NCBI GenBank assembly: GCA_964016885.1
Contig: OZ024744.1
Span: forward strand, 59,768,001-59,832,000
Length of the DNA: 64,000 nucleotides
DNA from: Eledone cirrhosa
Lineage: Eukaryota
Reading direction: 5' to 3'
The translations under genes and the position numbers were made by a program. Below, in pieces: positions 575-63,429 of this stretch. The notes under the pieces are model-generated. The model was not told where the DNA came from. It saw only the letters and a program-made list of their open reading frames with translations, and did not search any database. Within the stretch, counting starts at the first letter, position 1; each line of letters opens with the position of its first letter.

Positions 575-1998
575 TTTGGGACGAGGTAACGAGCAGAGTA
601 GTCAGTCTCACCCAAAAATGGGCTGGGAGGAAGCTATCACTGAAAGGTCGCGCGGAGGTGGCGAATGCGTACATCGCGTCCGTCATCTACTACCGCCTAA
701 CCGTCGTGCCTTGCCCCCGTCCGCGCCTCGTCAAGTTGGAACGGCTCCTCTTCAAATTCTTGTGGAGGAGACAAGTTCCGTTGGTGAGGCGGTCCATCTG
801 CTGCCAGCACCCTCTACGCGGAGGGCTGGGCATGCCGTGGCTAATGATGCGCAGACATGCGTTGAGGCTGCGACATCTCCAGATATTCTGCCTCAACGGT
901 GAACAGGTGTGGTCGCCGTTTATCAGACGGGCCTTTCCGCAGCTCATTTCTTTGACTGAGCTGCAGTCCTGGGTCAAGAAGAGACCGAGACTGGGTGACT
1001 GGCACCTGGAATGTTGCCAGGCACTCACTGCCCTCTACCAAGCGGGCAATGCGATCAGTGGAACTTCCACTCTCGAGTTCTATGGAGGAATAGTGGTGGG
1101 CAAGTGCGATGACGCACTCGGAGAAGCTTTGGGCCTCGACGAAGTCGAACTGACCAGTCTGTACCGGAGGACTTTTGAGCCGGGGACGATGGACAATTTC
1201 CAGAAATTCCTCGCTTGGCAGTGTTACCGGGGGGGGGGGGGGGGGGGGGGCACTGCCGGTTCGGTATAAACTCTACAGGCACGGAAGTGCTGTCAGACGG
1301 ACCTGCCCAAGATGCGCACAGAACGACGAAACCGTTCTGCACGCACTTGTCCAATGTCCGTGCATTACTGACTTGTGGAGTTATGTCGAACAGCTACTGT
1401 CGCGTGTGGAACGAATCCGGCTATCGGCCGAGTCCATAGTGAAGATCGATCCACCACCTTCCTTAGGTCAGGAAGAGCAGGACATTTTCCTCTGTCTGGT
1501 GGCAGTTGCGAAAGAGATTATATGGTGGACCAGGTTGAAAGGACTAAAGACAGACACTTTTCTCTTCGGCCAATCCCTCATCAACTTCTCCAAATTTCAC
1601 CTGTAAAGGAGGGTGAGGGTGGAGAGAGAAGTGCTGCCCCCCAGTACATTTGCTAAAAGGTGGGTGAATGTGGCGAGAATGGCTCGTGTGAATGGGCCTA
1701 CTCTGACCATGCGCCTATAGGATGGCTAACTTGAGGAGAGGGGTGCTCTCCTGGGTGCCCTAGAAGCGCAGGGTGGTTCAGGATTGGTGGGGTACCCGAA
1801 TCACCCCAGGGTCGTCCACCCCCTATCGGGGAATTTATTTTGTTATATTTATGCATAGTTTATTTTATATTTTTATATTTTCATTGTTAAATTAGTCTTG
1901 CCATTGTGCACTTTTACTCGACCTTATTGTAAACCCCCACTGTCTCTGTCTTTGTATTGTCCCCTACATGTCGGCCCTTGTGGCTAATAAATGAAATC
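575..1998 (+). mobile_element. Tx1/L1-clade LINE, 5'-truncated (ORF2 post-RT region, zinc finger, 3'UTR)
   Basis: ORFs 559-1269 and 1175-1606 contain W..RKLSLKGR, GGLGMP and CPRC...ETVLHALVQC. It is homologous to 20.7-21.8 kb, ends in AATAAATGAAATC and has (TTA)n on both sides. A G-run at ~1228-1250 shifts the frame. Confidence 0.9.
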
Positions 1999-2095
1999 AT
2001 TATTATTATTATTATTATTATTATTATTATTATTATTATTATTATTATTATTATTATTATTATTATTATTATTATTATTATTATTATTGTTATTA
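1999..2095. repeat. (ATT)n microsatellite shared by the tail-to-tail Tx1 (+) and R4/Dong (-) 3' ends
   Basis: Direct reading. Confidence 0.95.
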
Positions 2096-5000
2096 CTCTT
2101 TGAGTCTCAGTCATTGATGTTAGTTAACTGGAAAGTTTGTTGAAATGAATATCAAGCCACTACCTGCAGCCTCAGATATTCAGGACGTATTGGAGGGTTC
2201 TTGCTGTTCCCAGCAAGCATGCCTTTTGAAGCGTTCCAAAAAGCGTGAAGGGGCCAATTTTCTTTAACCATCCCTGGAAACTTTTTGAGATAGTCCCTAA
2301 TGCGCCTATGACAATCGGGATCACTTTGACTTTATGGCAGTTCCAAATCCTTTTTACCTCCCAGTGTAAGTCCTGGTATCAGTTAATTGTCTCCCCCTCC
2401 TTCTCTTGCACTCTCGTGTCGAATGGGCAGGCCACATCCACAATCAGGCACGATTTTTTTTCTTTGTCCAAAACCACCAGGTCAGGTCTATTGTGTTCCA
2501 GTTTCTTGTCCGTCTGTATCCTAAAATCCCACAGCACCTTCACCTAATCGTTTTCTATCACCGCCTCTGGCTTATGCTCATACCACTTCTCAGAATGTGG
2601 TAAATTGTTTACTTTGCATAGGTGCCAGTGGATCACCCTGCCCATCACATCATGTCTCCAGCCTTTATAGTGAGTCTGGGCTAGGTGTTTACACTCGGAT
2701 ACAATGTGAGCCACAGTCTCCTCTCTCCACAGATCCTGCACAGTGGGCTAGCCGCCTCCTTGTAAATGTGGTATTTCAGCCACTTCGTTTTGAGGGCCTG
2801 CTCCTGCGCAGCCATTAACATTCCCTCTGTAGCCTTTTTAAGGTCTCCTCTTTTCAACCAGTTCCATGTCTGTGGATCTCTAAATTCAGTTTTCTCAAAG
2901 AAGGTACTATGAAGGGATTTTTACTGAAGGCTGCTCTATCTCCTTGATGTTATTTCCTCCTTGGACATCCCCTGGCCTATTGTCCCCTCCTTCAGTACAG
3001 TTCTGAGCATTGGCTCCTTACTATCAGTCACGTATTTGTGTAGGTTGTTCTTCTCCATCTGAACACAGTCCTCTATGCTGATAAGACCTCTTCCACCTTC
3101 AGATCTCCCTAAGTAGAGTCTATCGACATCACTCCTCTTGTGGAACATGTTGTAGATAGTCAATAGCTTCCTAGTCTTCCTATTCATTTCTTTTTGTTCA
3201 GCAACATTCCATCTCAGAATTCCCGCACTGTACCTAATAATAGACACAGCTCGGGAATTTACTGCAGTTATGTAATTCCTACTGTTCAGATGTGACTTTA
3301 ATACGCTCCTTACTCTCCGAAGGTATTCAGTTCTTATCAATTCCTTCATTTCTTTGTTCTTGATGTCATCAGCCTCCAGAACGCCCAAATACTTGTATCC
3401 TTCCTCAGAGTCAATTTCCTTTATCATCTCACCTGTTGGTATCTGGATTCCGTTGCTTCTGCTCAACCTACCCCTCCTCATCACAATGACTCCACACTTA
3501 CTAATACCAAATTGCATACATATATCATTGCTGAAAATACGGACAGTGTCAACAAGCACATCCAACTCCTTCTCACTCTTCCCGAAGAGCTTAAGATCGT
3601 CCATGAAGAGGAGGTGATTGATGGTAAACTCTCCCTTTCCCAACTTGTATCCTGCTCTCACTTTTCGCAGTATAATGGTCAGGGGGATCAGGGCAAGGAC
3701 AAACAGCAGAGGGGACAGTCTATCTCCCTGGAAGATACCTCTCTTGATCCTCCGCCTCCCAAAGATTCTCCACTCGATTATTAACTCTGTTTTCCAGTAC
3801 TTCATACTCTTGCTCAACAACTGTCTGATGTTATCTGCCACCTTGAAGATCTCCAGGCTTTTGGTTATCCAAGAATGAGGTTCCATGTCGAATGCCTTTT
3901 TGTCGTCTATCCATCCCATGGCAAGACCAGTGTGTCTCCTCCTGCAATTCTTCATTACCATCTTATCAATAAGTAACTGGTCCTTTGTACCACGGGACTT
4001 CTTTCGGCATCCTTTCTGTTCGTCCGGTAACAAGTTGTTTGTGTGGAGGTGATGGTAGATTTCCTCAGACACAATGCTTGTTAACAGTTTCCACATTACG
4101 GACAGACATGCGATAGGTCTATAGTTGGTAACATCATTACTCTTGCTTCGGTCTTTCATGACCAGAACTGTAGTACCTTTTGTCAACCACTCTGGTACCT
4201 CACTTGACATCAAGCAGTCATTGAACATGGTTGTCAGTTTCGGGTGGAGGGATGTTATATTTTTAATCAAATACCCTGCACACCATCTGGGCCTGGTGAT
4301 TCCCAGTTGGTTGTTTCCTCTCGATTTTATGCAAAGTAATTTCCTCACCGCATTTGCGTTTGCTTTGAGGATATTGTTGCACTGGTCAAGGTTCCTCGCC
4401 TCAAGGTATGGGATGACTTTGTTTACCTTAGCTGTTGTCTCTTTTAACTTTTTCCTGTCTACAAATCTTAGGTTCATAGGTTTCCCACTATCATTGTTCA
4501 TTTCATCTACCACTTAGTTTAGGATATCAACCAAATCTTGTCCTAGCCCGTCAGCATTCATCTCCTCAGTGGCCGTATCTTTGTTCCAGGTATTATTTAT
4601 TTCAGCATTCAGATCATTGTCTGCTTCGAATGCTTCCTCCGTTCTCTCAACCTCTTCACCTTCATCTCCCACTGGCTAGTTTGCCTGGCATACTCCACTC
4701 TCCATTTCCAATCTAATCTCTCTGCTGAGTTCCCCCAGTTCCAGCTCGCTTATCCACCCATTAGTTCTTATTACCCGAGCCTGCCCGGCCAATTTTTGTT
4801 CATCTAATTTAAATAGACCAATCTCGTTCCAGATGATATGCATCCGTTTCCTATAGCCTTTCTCCTTGGGGTTACTCTTCAGGTAACATTGCATAACAGT
4901 TCTATTCAATTCTTTCGTCTAGTTGGTTCTGGGCCCTTTCCTTCTTCTTCTTCCTCCGACACCAGCAGTATTTGGTTGACAGCCAGGTCCCTGCTGTTGA

Positions 5001-5357
5001 GCCAGGGAGCACCTGTTTGGTGAGAGTCTGTCACATGACATTCTTGTCCCCATTTCACCGTTATTCGAACTGTTTAGGTTCGACATTTAAACACTCTTAT
5101 CGAGGATTGGCGAATGTATGGTTACATAACCACCAGTGAATTACTTGTCTCCGGTGGTTTCGTCACTCCACGTGACTTTTGTGTGGCATTATCACGCTGT
5201 AGACGAACCCAAATAAACAAACAAACAAACAGGCAGAAAAAACCCCCAAAATGAATAAGCATAAATTTCATTGTAATGTAGTGTTTGAATGTCTGACTTA
5301 GTTTTCCCTTCCCTTCTCTGTCCGTCCGTTTGTTTTTCTCTTCATTTTTTAATTTTT
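2096..5357 (-). mobile_element. R4/Dong-type RLE non-LTR retrotransposon (TAA family), near full-length, internally deleted and degenerate
   Basis: N-terminal CY..SNP...GYRKRM..IW, RT (RGIFQGD, LLFMDD), CCHC (ETVAHIVSEC) and RLE (RPDLVV...DVACP, IPIVIGALG). (AAT)n follows the 3' end and (TTA)n lies at ~5358-5378. The 5' boundary is approximate. Confidence 0.88.
2936..4513 (-). pseudogene. Reverse transcriptase part of the R4/Dong ORF (disrupted)
   Basis: The 525-aa frame has NYRPIACL, EQKGC, KAFD, IFQGD and FMDD. There is a deletion/frameshift near 4290 and a premature stop at 2936. Confidence 0.88.
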
Positions 5358-62789: not shown

Positions 62790-63100
62790 GATATGAAAGG
62801 ATTAGAACCAAACCTTGGCATTAAGAGCTACGCCAATACTGCTTCATAGTGCCAAAGTTCCCACCGCTTTGCAGCTAGTGTAAGGACAACATTCTGCAAT
62901 AGCTTGGAGTTCAAATGTCTACAGCTCTTCAATAACTCGCCAAAATCCATGGGAGATCTACACGGAGAGGATGTAACCGTTTTCAAGAGGAACCTCGACA
63001 TTCTGATGTCTAAGAATCCAATGAGCATACATCACTACCAGAAACTCAAATGGAAGCAGGAGTGTCAAACTCCCCCCATTCATCCGATGGCTAACTAAAG
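62790..63100 (+). mobile_element. Degenerate CR1-like LINE 3' fragment
   Basis: Translates FCNSLEFKCLQLFNNSPKSMGDLHGEDVTVFKRNLD, resembling the CR1/L2-group ORF2 C-terminus (FN.LP...FK..LD). Confidence 0.55.
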
Positions 63101-63391
63101 AGCGAGGGTTATATAAAATGTTGGCAAAACTGGCCACTGCACAGAAGTTAAAATAGGTTAAAAGAGTAAAAGAGTATGTGTATATATATATATATATATA
63201 TATATATATATATATATATATATATATATATATATATATATAAGAATTAAAATACTAGAGTGTGTTGGAGTTAAACACCCTCTTCATATTATAGAAATGA
63301 CAGTATAGGATATAGCTCAATGTAATTAAACAGCCGAAGAATTATAAAAAATAAACCAAAGAAGCCTTCAATACATCAAAAGTCTTTATTA

Positions 63392-63429
63392 GCCAACAAT
63401 GTTTCGTCCTATTAAGGACTCATCATGGC
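63392..63429 (-). ncRNA. Degenerate minimal hammerhead (C3 lost)
   Basis: GCC-AUGAUGA-GUCCU-UAAU-AGGAC-GAAA-CAUUG-UU-GGC followed by AAUAAA. Confidence 0.5.

What the first reader, a model, noticed from the sequence alone, without database searches (positions are those of the whole stretch)
575..63429. Microsatellite niche partition with a strict strand rule among retroelement groups
Seen: (TAA)n arrays hold Tx1 elements (sense strand reads TTA) and Dong elements (sense reads TAA), giving tail-to-tail junctions at ~2000-2095 and ~26881-26987 and head-to-head junctions at ~5358-5378, ~7518-7620 and ~26534-26572. (TACA)n arrays hold R4 families A/B (sense TACA) and RTE elements (sense TGTA). 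(TA)n arrays hold Penelope elements and hammerhead repeats. Inference: each repeat type is shared by an APE-type and an RLE-type LINE nicking opposite strands. Each insertion duplicates or extends the repeat and creates new targets, producing a self-feeding nest.
Basis: partly seen in the sequence, partly recalled or inferred. Interest (0 to 1): 0.72.

Follow-up and report, generated by a model that had tools for sequence, protein, structure and literature searches.

The report
Retrotransposons sharing microsatellites in fixed, opposite orientations
This stretch of an animal genome is a pile-up of jumping genes that sit inside three kinds of simple repeat, each family always facing the same way relative to the repeat, a habit that is likely set by how each family primes its copying on one strand of the repeat; the habit itself is known, several of the target repeats seem to be new.

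Summary
In the window, 33 of 42 flanks of 21 LINE pieces carry the repeat in the family's own orientation, 9 carry none or another repeat, and 0 are reversed.

Results from the 30 best genomic copies per family:
- Tx1-like (APE): (TTA)n tails in 29/30; (TTA)n before the 5' head in 30/30.
- Dong-like (RLE): (TAA)n tails in 29/30.
- Two R4-like RLE families: (ACAT)n tails in 30/30 and 28/30.
- RTE-like (APE): (ATGT)n in 14/30 and (TA)n in 11/30.
- Penelope-like terminus: (TA)n in 29/30.

A random position scores 0.15-0.43% for the tri- and tetranucleotide motifs and 4.4% for (TA)n. 5'-truncated copies also abut the repeat: 7/13, 8/13 and 13/15. Neighbours from partner families are always inverted.

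- Sharing of a repeat by APE-type and RLE-type elements is real.
- The partition is leaky, because RTE also uses (TA)n.
- (TA)n reads the same on both strands, so it can show no strand rule.
- "Opposite-strand nicking" and "self-feeding" are inferences.

Microsatellite-targeting LINEs are known, including Dong in (TAA)n. A Tx1-type element on (TTA)n, Dong/R4-type on (ACAT)n and RTE on (ATGT)n/(TA)n were not found in print. Earlier scan notes report the same pattern elsewhere in this genome.

The parts
577..1998 (+). Tx1-like family 1, 5'-truncated 3' part. (ATT)n lies on both sides, so the sense strand reads TTA.
   Evidence: 70% aa identity to the RT ORF of the full-length copy; zf-RVT; flanks; 29/30 genomic copies have a TTA tail.
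1999..2095 (.). (ATT)32 array: tail-to-tail junction of a Tx1-like and a Dong-like element.
2096..5356 (-). Dong-like 1, an R2-group RLE LINE. The sense tail reads TAATAACAA(TAA)n, and (TAA)n also lies upstream.
   Evidence: RVT_1 E 1.2e-22; best solved relatives are R2 proteins; the C-terminus aligns to the R4-B RLE region and shows CCHC, RHD and RPD motifs, with stop codons; flanks.
5380..6601 (+). Tx1-like family 2, 5' part, preceded by (TTA)7.
   Evidence: 91-94% identical to 25239-26557; 30/30 genomic heads are preceded by (ATT)n.
6598..7518 (-). Two Dong-like 1 fragments (6598-7280 and 7305-7518).
   Evidence: 96-97% identical to 2073-2911; flanks.
7621..8850 (+). 5' part of another Tx1-like family, directly after (TAT)35. 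It forms a head-to-head junction with the Dong fragment.
   Evidence: 37-56% aa identity to the first ORF of the full-length Tx1-like copy; flank.
8861..10205 (+). RTE-like piece, 5'-truncated, ending ..GCAGCCATCATC plus (ATGT)15.
   Evidence: 57-59% aa identity to the full-length RTE-like copy L063; C2H2 fingers; tail.
10266..11654 (-). R4-A, 5'-truncated, with (ACAT)n in sense on both sides. It lies tail-to-tail with the RTE-like piece.
13993..15843 (+). RTE-like family E, 5'-truncated. RT plus two C-terminal C2H2 fingers; tail is ATGTATGT then (AT)n(TG)n.
   Evidence: RVT_1 E 4.1e-22. Full-length relatives of about 4.0 kb carry an APE domain.
20431..26534 (-). Full-length Tx1-like family 2: a 741-aa first ORF, APE, RT and a zinc knuckle. 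(TTA)n in sense lies at both ends.
   Evidence: Exo_endo_phos E 1.1e-11 and RVT_1 E 3.4e-26; zf-RVT; best solved relatives are L1 ORF2p; flanks.
26574..26883 (+). 3' fragment of Dong-like family 2, between (AAT)13 and (ATA)35.
   Evidence: Encodes the IPVVVGALG C-terminal motif by eye; recurs inverted after Tx1 tails.
26988..27061 (-). Tx1-type 3' end (..CCCTTGTGGCCAAAAAAGAAATCA) with a (TTA)n tail.
   Evidence: (83% identical to 20385-20504)
34284..34340 (+). Minimal Penelope-type hammerhead motif: CUGAUGAG, helix II, CGAAA, then a palindromic UAUAUA loop.
   Evidence: Seen by eye. Not reported by Rfam.
34509..36285 (-). Tandem array of 5.7 units of 312 bp. Each unit has a minimal hammerhead core. 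(AT)n lies on both sides.
   Evidence: HH9 at 19.9 bits per unit, below threshold; dispersed 99-100% identical arrays with (TA)n flanks elsewhere.
41898..42403 (+). Partial inverted copy of the Penelope-like element, starting right after (TA)n.
   Evidence: 95% identical to 44091-44559 in inverted orientation.
43100..44553 (-). Penelope-like element with a C-terminal GIY-YIG endonuclease. Its terminus abuts (TA)n.
   Evidence: GIY-YIG E 6.5e-07; 29/30 genomic copies of the terminus have (TA)n upstream.
44997..48229 (-). R4-A, the longest copy in the window (3.2 kb), with (ACAT)n in sense on both sides.
   Evidence: Colinear with R4-B residues 2-1157; flanks.
50129..50820 (+). R4-A 3' fragment with an (ACAT)27 tail.
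51857..55425 (+). R4-B with an intact 1162-aa ORF (RT, CCHC, RLE), lacking about 655 bp of 5' UTR. (ACAT)n lies on both sides.
   Evidence: The 3'-terminal 282 bases are 100% identical to those of the 39 other copies scored. 5' UTR.
55466..55510 (-). RTE-like 3' stub, tail-to-tail with R4-B.
56108..56409 (+). R4-A 3' fragment with an (ACAT)23 tail.
56502..57098 (-). Short RTE-like derivative that keeps both the 5' end and the 3' end of family E. (ATGT)n in sense lies on both sides.
   Evidence: (5' end matches the full-length copies)
57218..60002 (+). Two 5'-truncated R4-B copies (57218-59210 and 59304-60002), each followed by (ACAT)n.
60159..62387 (+). R4-A, 5'-truncated, preceded by (ACAT)n. 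No repeat lies directly at its 3' end.

Best explanation
The window is a nest of microsatellite-dwelling retroelements whose fixed orientation is likely set by target-primed reverse transcription, in which each family's RNA, ending in a few repeat units, would be primed from one nicked strand of the matching genomic repeat.

Shown:
- Four LINE groups and one Penelope-like group have the same repeat at both the 5' junction and the 3' end, always in the same reading, in the window and across the genome.
- The 5' flanks of truncated copies carry the repeat far more often than random DNA does, so the repeat is the target and not only a tail.
- The first units after the 3' UTR are constant within a family (for example GAG|TAATAACAA(TAA)n, ATC|ATTATT, GAAA|ACATACAT). 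This fits a tail copied from the RNA.
- Two endonuclease classes share a repeat. APE (Tx1-like) and RLE (Dong-like) share (TAA)n. RLE (R4-like) and APE (RTE-like) share (ACAT)n. GIY-YIG (Penelope-like) and APE (RTE-like) share (TA)n.

Inferred:
- The Tx1-like nuclease would first nick the TAA strand, and the Dong-like nuclease the TTA strand.
- Likewise, the R4-like nuclease would nick the ATGT strand and the RTE-like nuclease the ACAT strand.
- The freed 3' end would pair with the RNA tail.
- Each insertion splits an array in two and may add units, so arrays attract further copies and mixed trains build up.
For: Window: 33 of 42 flanks obey the rule and 0 are reversed.

Genome-wide, 30 best loci per query, each set including the window's own copy:
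- Tx1-like 3' end: 29/30 TTA tails and 1 TTC. Truncated 5' junctions: 7 TTA, 1 TTC and 5 none of 13.
- Tx1-like 5' head: 30/30 preceded by (ATT)n.
- Dong-like 1: 29/30 TAA tails. 5' junctions: 8 TAA, 1 GAA and 4 none of 13. Of 6 longer copies, 3 have TAA upstream.
- R4-B: 30/30 ACAT tails. 5' junctions: 13 ACAT, 1 TA and 1 none of 15. All 5 longer copies have ACAT upstream, including 2 full-length ones.
- R4-A: 28/30 ACAT tails. 5' junctions: 6 ACAT of 9.
- RTE-like: 14 ATGT, 11 TA and 5 none of 30, with 0 ACAT.
- Penelope-like terminus: 29/30 with (TA)n.
- Hammerhead arrays: at least one (TA)n flank in 15 of 16 loci, and both flanks in 8 of 16.

Random control of 40 x 10 kb: TTA 0.157%, TAA 0.153%, ACAT 0.419%, ATGT 0.432%, TA 4.449% of positions.

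Neighbours within 200 bp downstream:
- Dong next to Tx1 is inverted in 11/11 cases, and Tx1 next to Dong in 6/6.
- RTE next to R4 is inverted in 5/5 and 6/6 cases, and R4 next to RTE in 2/2.
- Neighbours of the same group have the same orientation in 4/4, 4/4, 7/7 and 9/9 cases.

In random DNA, 4 of 10 AAT/ATT arrays and 5 of 11 ACAT/ATGT arrays abut one of the window's families. All 10 element ends are in the expected orientation.

Endonuclease classes. In one search, the seven fold matches with E <= 0.001 are all R2 proteins.

Precedents:
- Dong targets (TAA)n (PMC7998251 passages; PMC3812793 passages).
- Tx1-clade elements target (TC)n, (TTC)n and (TTCC)n (PMC4494074 passages).
- Penelope-like elements prefer (TA)n (PMC8557442 passages).
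Against: - No nicking site, RNA end or empty allele was observed. The strand that is cut is deduced from the model.
- Between 1/15 and 5/13 of the 5' junctions of truncated copies show no repeat, so targeting is a strong preference and not absolute. Alternatively, the repeats at those junctions have decayed.
- The RTE-like family uses two motifs.
- Exceptions among neighbours: one SINE in the same orientation after a Dong tail, and two RTE-RTE inverted pairs.
- Only the 30 best of 900-3,000 first-look candidates per family were read. Older copies are therefore not sampled, and a few loci are duplicates (L048/L049) or lie in one nest (L099/L100).
- No self-cleaving ribozyme was found at the R4-B 5' UTR, so how these copies are transcribed is open.
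Confidence: 0.82

Rival explanations
1. The RNA tail alone sets the specificity. The endonucleases would nick loosely, and only nicks inside a repeat complementary to the RNA's 3' tail would be extended efficiently. The strand rule would then come from base pairing and not from sequence-specific cleavage.
For: - Tails start in a constant phase in every family.
- The RTE-like family, whose 3' end ..CATCATA can continue as either TATA or TGTA, is found in both (TA)n and (ATGT)n.
- RTE elements are known to end in simple repeats without being called target-specific (PMC2887409 abstract; PMC9115989 passages).
Against: In the related R1 and Tx1 clades the encoded endonuclease is held to determine the target (PMC4494074 passage citing Takahashi and Fujiwara 2002). 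The very high share of 5' junctions inside repeats (13/15 and 30/30) also requires the second-strand break to fall in the repeat. These data cannot separate this reading from the main explanation.
Confidence: 0.3
2. There is no targeting. The elements merely carry repeat tails, which later grow by slippage, and the arrays and trains arise by unequal crossing-over or local duplication.
For: - RTE and other LINE tails are known sources of microsatellites (PMC2887409 abstract; PMC3812793 abstract).
- Some loci in my samples are local duplicates (L048/L049).
Against: - 5'-truncated copies with different truncation points, on different chromosomes, have the repeat at the 5' junction in 7/13, 8/13, 13/15 and 6/9 cases. 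A random position shows it 0.15-0.43% of the time.
- 30/30 Tx1-like heads are preceded by (ATT)n, with varied sequence further upstream.
- Copies are 97-100% identical, which is too young for large arrays to have grown independently at both ends.
Confidence: 0.04
3. Insertions land in both orientations, and selection or repair removes one of them. The orientation rule would be a survivorship effect.
For: None found here.
Against: The rule holds for copies whose sampled 280-300-base ends are 99-100% identical to other copies, which leaves little time for purging. It also holds equally for families of opposite polarity in the same arrays, so no single orientation is favoured by the locus.
Confidence: 0.03

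Closest known systems
Dong elements (R4 clade; Bombyx Dong, DongAg, DongBg), specific for (TAA)n
   Same: - Dong-like 1 and 2 here are RLE-type LINEs.
- They lie in (TAA)n with TAA on the sense strand at both ends.
- This matches the published Dong target (PMC7998251, PMC3812793) and the (TAA)7 upstream flank used for Dong in PMC3774820 (passages read).
   Different: The two R4-like families here (32-37% aa identity to Dong-like 1 in the RT) sit in (ACAT)n. I did not find that motif listed for this group in searches or in the papers read. Placement inside the R4 clade was not tested with reference sequences.
Microsatellite-specific Tx1-clade LINEs (Kibi on (TC)n, Koshi on (TTC)n, crocodilian Tx1 on (TTCC)n/(TTTC)n)
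   Same: - APE plus RT plus a C-terminal zinc knuckle.
- Strict insertion into one microsatellite.
- Short non-autonomous partners share the 3' end: a SINE with ..CCTTGTGCC..(TTA)n.
   Different: The target is (TTA)n, the strand opposite to Dong's. It is not among the targets listed in PMC4494074 or PMC3812793 (passages read). Tx1-clade membership rests only on L1-group similarity and one transferred name.
TRAS and SART in Bombyx telomeric repeats
   Same: Two LINE families occupy one tandem repeat in fixed, opposite orientations (PMC10088271 passage).
   Different: TRAS and SART are both R1-clade APE elements in telomeric repeats. Here the partners belong to different endonuclease classes (APE and RLE), sit in interstitial microsatellites, and the pairing occurs twice with different motifs.
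RTE-clade LINEs with simple-repeat 3' ends (lepidopteran RTE; RTE-2_OV of octopus)
   Same: - A single APE plus RT reading frame.
- A very short 3' UTR that runs into a microsatellite (PMC2887409 abstract; PMC9115989 passages).
   Different: - 5' ends of full-length copies (4 of 4) and of some truncated copies (5 of 11) also lie in (TA)n or (TGTA)n. This suggests insertion into the repeat.
- The protein carries two C-terminal C2H2 fingers.
Penelope-like elements with a (TA)n preference (Neptune, Naiad, Hydra clades) and hammerhead-bearing tandem 'retrozymes'
   Same: - GIY-YIG endonuclease.
- (TA)n at the terminus.
- Inverted and tandem copies.
- Minimal hammerhead cores (PMC8557442 passages; title and abstract of bioRxiv 10.64898/2026.07.22.740005 from listing 17).
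   Different: The clade was not determined. Pfam did not see the RT part. The hammerheads fall below Rfam thresholds. No sequence link between the 312-bp repeat and the Penelope-like element was found by eye.

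Membership tests
R4/Dong group of RLE LINEs | RT most similar to the R2 group, with no APE domain | tested here: met
   The best solved relatives of Dong-like 1 and R4-B are R2 proteins. Pfam finds no APE domain in these ORFs.
R4/Dong group of RLE LINEs | C-terminal CCHC knuckle followed by a PD-(D/E)XK restriction-like endonuclease | tested here: met
   - Invariant C95, C98, H107, C112, R124, H125, N172 and D175 across 22 sequences.
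- The profile is colinear with R2 proteins to their C-terminus, E 2.6e-58.
- The model has pLDDT 86.6.
- The seven fold matches with E <= 0.001 are all R2 proteins, TM 0.56-0.65.
- Dong-like 1 shows the same motifs but contains stop codons.
R4/Dong group of RLE LINEs | Dong target: (TAA)n, with TAA on the sense strand | tested here: met
   Met for Dong-like 1: 29/30 tails and 8/13 5' junctions. Not met for R4-A and R4-B, which use (ACAT)n.
R4/Dong group of RLE LINEs | RT phylogeny inside the R4 clade with reference Dong, R4 and Rex6 | not testable with these tools
   No reference element sequences are held.
Tx1 clade | APE plus RT plus a C-terminal zinc knuckle, with a separate first ORF | tested here: met
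   Exo_endo_phos E 1.1e-11, RVT_1 E 3.4e-26, zf-RVT, and a 741-aa upstream ORF.
Tx1 clade | Target-specific insertion | tested here: met
   30/30 heads and 29/30 tails in (TTA)n; 7/13 truncated 5' junctions.
Tx1 clade | RT phylogeny with Tx1 rather than L1 | tested here: inconclusive
   The best solved relatives are L1 ORF2p. The third-best long homologue bears the transferred name 'Transposon TX1 uncharacterized 149 kDa protein', but so do fungal proteins further down the list.
RTE clade | Compact element of one APE plus RT frame, with a very short 3' UTR ending in a simple repeat | tested here: met
   - Full-length copies are about 4.0 kb.
- APE and RT are present, although all four copies have frame breaks.
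- About 50 bases lie between the stop codon and the repeat.
RTE clade | RT/APE phylogeny within RTE | tested here: inconclusive
   One of the 120 listed homologues is named 'craniofacial development protein 2-like'; that this name marks RTE-derived genes is recalled. The rest are unnamed. No tree was built.
Penelope-like elements | GIY-YIG endonuclease joined to a Penelope-type RT | tested here: inconclusive
   GIY-YIG E 6.5e-07. The upstream ORF pieces give no Pfam RT hit. The window copy holds only about 390 codons.
Penelope-like elements | Hammerhead ribozyme motifs and tandem or inverted copies | tested here: inconclusive
   Cores CUGAUGA...GAAA with palindromic helix III loops are seen by eye. 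HH9 scores 19.9-25.7 bits against a gathering score of 52. Inverted copies are present.
TRAS/SART-type co-occupancy of one repeat | Two families in one tandem repeat in fixed, opposite orientation | tested here: met
TRAS/SART-type co-occupancy of one repeat | Both partners are R1-clade APE elements in telomeric repeats | tested here: not met
   The partners are an APE and an RLE element in interstitial (TAA)n and (ACAT)n.

The most novel reading that the evidence does not exclude
Unrelated retroelement lineages form a cross-feeding community on microsatellites. Every insertion by one partner lays down fresh double-stranded repeat that is the target of the partner reading the other strand. In this way an APE-type and an RLE-type LINE (and, on (TA)n, a GIY-YIG element) would jointly build and maintain much of this genome's (AAT)n, (ACAT)n and (TA)n landscape, and they avoid competing by using opposite strands of the same site.
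Probability: 0.3. Interest if true: 0.62.

Novelty: new variant of a known kind. Interest (0 to 1): 0.45.

Why it matters
Target-specific LINEs are the natural models for site-directed insertion of long DNA, and R2 is already being engineered for that purpose. This genome offers young families for comparison: the 280-300-base ends searched are 97-100% identical between copies. Two nuclease types read opposite strands of one simple repeat, and relatives of Dong have moved from a 3-base to a 4-base repeat. Both allow a direct comparison of how APE and RLE enzymes recognise the same DNA, and of how target choice evolves.

The finding also bears on where microsatellites come from. In 400 kb of random DNA, 9 of 21 arrays of these two motifs abut one of the few families taken from this window. 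About 4.4% of random positions lie within 10 bases of a (TA)n run of 12 bases or more.

For genome annotation, such trains of elements and repeats should be read as serial insertions and not as satellites.

Tried and rejected
- **Rfam, gathering threshold, whole window:** no hit. At E <= 5 there were only microsatellite look-alikes of miRNA families and weak HH9 hits.
- **ARAGORN:** no tRNA, so the tRNA-like head of the SINE is not a recognisable tRNA.
- **Ribozyme at the 5' UTR of full-length R4-B:** I looked for an HDV-like or other ribozyme, as R2 and Dong have. Nothing appeared at E <= 1.
- **phmmer of the R4-B C-terminus alone against solved structures:** nothing meaningful. The family profile and the fold search were needed.
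- **First flank classifier:** a 24-base window missed short tails. I replaced it with a 12-base window allowing one mismatch, and used the same classifier for the random control.
- **R4-A 5' junctions:** 21 of 30 alignments stop at a subfamily divergence point (reference positions 2598-2609), not at a junction. These were dropped from the 5' count.
- **One element at 7621-10205 with a (TTA)n tail:** rejected. It is a Tx1-like 5' part plus an RTE-like 3' part.
- **Clade naming from source names:** almost all homologues are unnamed.
- not used to look for empty alleles. The junctions lie in long perfect repeats that short-read contigs cannot cross.

Full report
**Setting.** The window is G000:C28:59768001-59832000 of a 3.0-Gb animal genome. 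It contains about 40% G+C, dense microsatellites and many reverse-transcriptase ORFs. I did not identify the organism. Earlier notes of this scan guess an octopus, which I did not test.

**Anatomy.** Self-comparison, Pfam, tblastn with the window's own ORFs and direct reading give 24 retroelement pieces.

Elements in (AAT)n/(ATT)n arrays:
- Tx1-like pieces at 577-1998 (+), 5380-6601 (+) and 7621-8850 (+).
- A full-length Tx1-like copy at 20431-26534 (-), with a 741-aa first ORF, APE (E 1.1e-11), RT (E 3.4e-26) and a zinc knuckle.
- A Tx1-like 3' stub at 26988-27061 (-).
- Dong-like pieces at 2096-5356 (-), 6598-7280 (-), 7305-7518 (-) and 26574-26883 (+).

Elements in (ACAT)n/(ATGT)n arrays:
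- R4-A at 10266-11654 (-), 44997-48229 (-), 50129-50820 (+), 56108-56409 (+) and 60159-62387 (+).
- R4-B at 51857-55425 (+), with an intact 1162-aa ORF, and at 57218-59210 (+) and 59304-60002 (+).
- RTE-like pieces at 8861-10205 (+), 13993-15843 (+), 55466-55510 (-) and 56502-57098 (-).

Elements in (TA)n:
- A GIY-YIG element at 43100-44553 (-) and its inverted partial copy at 41898-42403 (+).
- A tandem array of 312-bp units at 34509-36285.

**Observation check.** With a 12-base classifier, 33 of the 42 flanks of the 21 LINE pieces carry the repeat in the family's own reading: TTA for Tx1-like, TAA for Dong-like, ACAT for R4-like, ATGT for RTE-like. Nine flanks carry none or another repeat, and none is reversed.

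There are three corrections:
- The stretch 7621-10205 is two elements.
- The tail of RTE copy 13993-15843 is two ATGT units and then (AT)n(TG)n.
- The hammerheads are not Rfam-grade. There is no gathering hit, and HH9 scores 19.9-25.7 bits against a threshold of 52. By eye, the 312-bp unit and 34284-34340 have the core CUGAUGA...GAAA, a one-pair helix III and a palindromic loop. As I recall, that is the minimal form described for Penelope-like elements.

**Genome-wide test.** For each family I searched the genome with about 280-300 unique bases next to the repeat. I read the 30 best loci of the roughly 40 scored, out of 452 to 3,081 first-look candidates. Each set includes the window's own copy. 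The samples are therefore young copies and not a census.

| Family | 3' tail (of 30) | 5' junction |
|---|---|---|
| Tx1-like 3' end | 29 TTA, 1 TTC, 0 TAA | truncated copies, of 13: 7 TTA, 1 TTC, 5 none |
| Tx1-like 5' head | not applicable | 30/30 preceded by (ATT)n |
| Dong-like 1 | 29 TAA, 1 none | of 13: 8 TAA, 1 GAA, 4 none; 3 of 6 longer copies have TAA upstream |
| R4-B | 30 ACAT | of 15: 13 ACAT, 1 TA, 1 none; 5 of 5 longer copies have ACAT upstream |
| R4-A | 28 ACAT, 1 AC, 1 none | of 9: 6 ACAT, 3 none; 21 alignments dropped |
| RTE-like E | 14 ATGT, 11 TA, 5 none, 0 ACAT | of 11: 1 ATGT, 4 TA, 6 none; four full-length copies: 3 (TA)n, 1 (TGTA)n by eye |

Further points:
- Two of the five longer R4-B copies are full-length. 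Their 655-bp 5' UTR starts right after (ACAT)n.
- The 21 dropped R4-A alignments end at a subfamily break and not at a junction.
- The Penelope-like terminus has (TA)n upstream in 29/30 loci by eye: 20 directly and 9 behind a 45-50-bp extension.
- The 312-bp arrays are dispersed, 99-100% identical, and often occur as inverted pairs of tandem arrays. At least one (TA)n flank is present in 15 of 16 distinct loci, and both flanks in 8 of 16.

**Controls.** In 40 random 10-kb stretches (792,000 strand-positions) the same classifier calls TTA at 0.157%, TAA at 0.153%, ACAT at 0.419%, ATGT at 0.432% and TA at 4.449% of positions. The 5' junction frequencies of truncated copies are therefore two to three orders of magnitude above background for the tri- and tetranucleotide motifs. 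With a 50% null for orientation, 0 reversals in about 150 tails is decisive. For (TA)n the enrichment is about 20-fold. No strand rule can be stated there, because the motif equals its own reverse complement.

**Neighbours** (within 200 bp after the 3' end):
- After Tx1-like tails: Dong-like inverted 11/11, Tx1-like same 4/4, SINE same 3/3.
- After Dong tails: Tx1-like inverted 6/6, SINE inverted 5 and same 1, Dong same 4/4.
- After R4-B tails: R4 same 7/7, RTE inverted 5/5.
- After R4-A tails: R4 same 9/9, RTE inverted 6/6.
- After RTE tails: R4 inverted 2/2, short RTE same 2, RTE inverted 2.

In the random sample, 4 of 10 AAT/ATT arrays and 5 of 11 ACAT/ATGT arrays of at least 15 bases abut one of the window's families. 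All 10 element ends are in the expected orientation. The sample is small.

**What the elements are.**

*R4-B.*
- A profile of 22 sequences is colinear with solved R2 proteins through to their C-terminus (E 2.6e-58).
- CCHC, RH and N..D residues are invariant.
- A model of the last 284 residues (pLDDT 86.6) matches seven R2 structures at E <= 0.001 and TM 0.56-0.65, followed by PD-(D/E)XK cap-snatching nucleases.
- It is therefore an RLE-type LINE of the R2 group.

*R4-A and Dong-like 1.* Both align to R4-B over the RT and the C-terminal domain, and Dong-like 1 shows the same motifs.

*Tx1-like.* The RT is closest to L1 ORF2p among solved structures. One long homologue bears a transferred Tx1 name.

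*RTE-like.*
- The family has APE, RT and two C2H2 fingers.
- Full-length copies are about 4.0 kb.
- One homologue is named craniofacial development protein 2-like; I recall that name as typical of RTE-derived genes.

No tree with reference elements could be built, so the clade names remain provisional.

**Mechanism.** The best reading is target-primed reverse transcription into the repeat.

Shown:
- The repeat lies at both ends in one reading.
- The phase of the first tail units is constant.
- Truncated copies share the target.
- Partner families are inverted.

Inferred:
- Which strand each nuclease nicks first.
- Pairing of the nicked end with the RNA tail.
- Addition of units at each insertion.

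A variant in which tail pairing, and not nuclease specificity, selects the site cannot be excluded. It fits the two-motif habit of the RTE-like family. Passive tail growth without targeting, and survivorship of one orientation, are both contradicted by the 5' junction counts and by how young the copies are.

**What is known.** From passages I read:
- Dong targets (TAA)n in insects, molluscs and cnidarians (PMC7998251; PMC3812793). A Dong 5' junction primer carries (TAA)7 upstream in sense (PMC3774820).
- Tx1-clade families target (TC)n, (TTC)n, (TTCC)n and (TTTC)n (PMC4494074).
- Waldo and Mino target ACAY and AC (PMC3812793).
- Penelope-like clades prefer (TA)n (PMC8557442).
- RTE 3' UTRs end in simple repeats (PMC2887409 abstract; PMC9115989).
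- TRAS and SART enter one telomeric repeat in opposite orientation (PMC10088271).
- A 2026 repeat annotation of Octopus vulgaris lists recently active Dong-R4, L1-Tx1, RTE and Penelope families. In the passages I saw it does not discuss targets (PMC13282606).

In searches I found no description of the following:
- a Tx1-type element on (TTA)n;
- a Dong/R4-type element on (ACAT)n;
- RTE insertion into (ATGT)n/(TA)n;
- APE and RLE partners sharing a microsatellite.

Subscription papers, notably Kojima and Fujiwara 2004, and Repbase reports were not readable, so these may be described there.

**Earlier notes of this scan.** One search shows that other windows of this genome gave the same readings: R4/Dong-type on (TACA)n, Tx1-type opposite Dong on (ATT)n, RTE opposite RLE families on (CATA)n, and a TA-associated Penelope-like element. 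They agree with what I measured independently here. I did not take counts from them.

**Verdict.** It is a known kind of behaviour with apparently new targets and a new pairing across nuclease classes. The "partition" is leaky, and the causal claims about nicking and self-feeding remain to be shown.

Noticed in passing
window 16756-18431: A 35-bp AT-rich satellite of 47.9 copies at 98% identity. It is unrelated to the retroelement families.
   Followed up: no
window 12906-13111, 19560-19698, 32619-32801, 40251-40437, 41075-41273, 49497-49717, 55563-55757: Seven copies of a roughly 200-bp SINE with a tRNA-like head (ARAGORN finds no tRNA). Its 3' end (..CCTTGTGCC..AGAAACAATTATTA) resembles the Tx1-like 3' ends. 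It is a likely non-autonomous partner of the Tx1-like LINEs, and in the window it mostly lies outside long arrays.
   Followed up: partly
L295:240-897 and L297 (own genome, C1): Full-length R4-B has a roughly 655-bp 5' UTR that the window copy lacks. The 3'-terminal 282 bases of the 39 other scored copies are 100% identical to those of the window copy, all on one chromosome-sized contig. The family is probably still active.
   Followed up: partly
window 9703-10020 and 15541-15792; L063:5706-6176: The RTE-like families end in two C2H2 zinc fingers after the RT. I do not recall this for the RTE clade. They could take part in recognising the repeat.
   Followed up: no
window 1229-1250 and 25348-25381: Homopolymer runs (G22 and G26-34) lie inside Tx1-like coding sequence where a sister copy has only five Gs on that strand. 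This is either local expansion or a sequencing artefact.
   Followed up: no
window 37606-38663 (-), next to (ACT)18 at 37387-37440: A further, diverged Dong/R4-like RT fragment (32% aa identity to Dong-like 1) lies about 170 bp from an (ACT)n array. I did not check whether this is a third target motif.
   Followed up: no
window 28051-29279: A 591-bp unit is duplicated in tandem (99.8% identical) between two (AT)n runs. It has no protein or hammerhead motif, and its element type is unknown.
   Followed up: no
random stretches L217-L256: About 4.4% of random positions lie within 10 bases of a (TA)n run of 12 bases or more. That is an unusually high (TA)n load for a genome.
   Followed up: partly
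window 31819-32273: A long CAC/AAC-rich low-complexity tract lies inside a 433-codon open frame (31265-32563). It was not examined.
   Followed up: no
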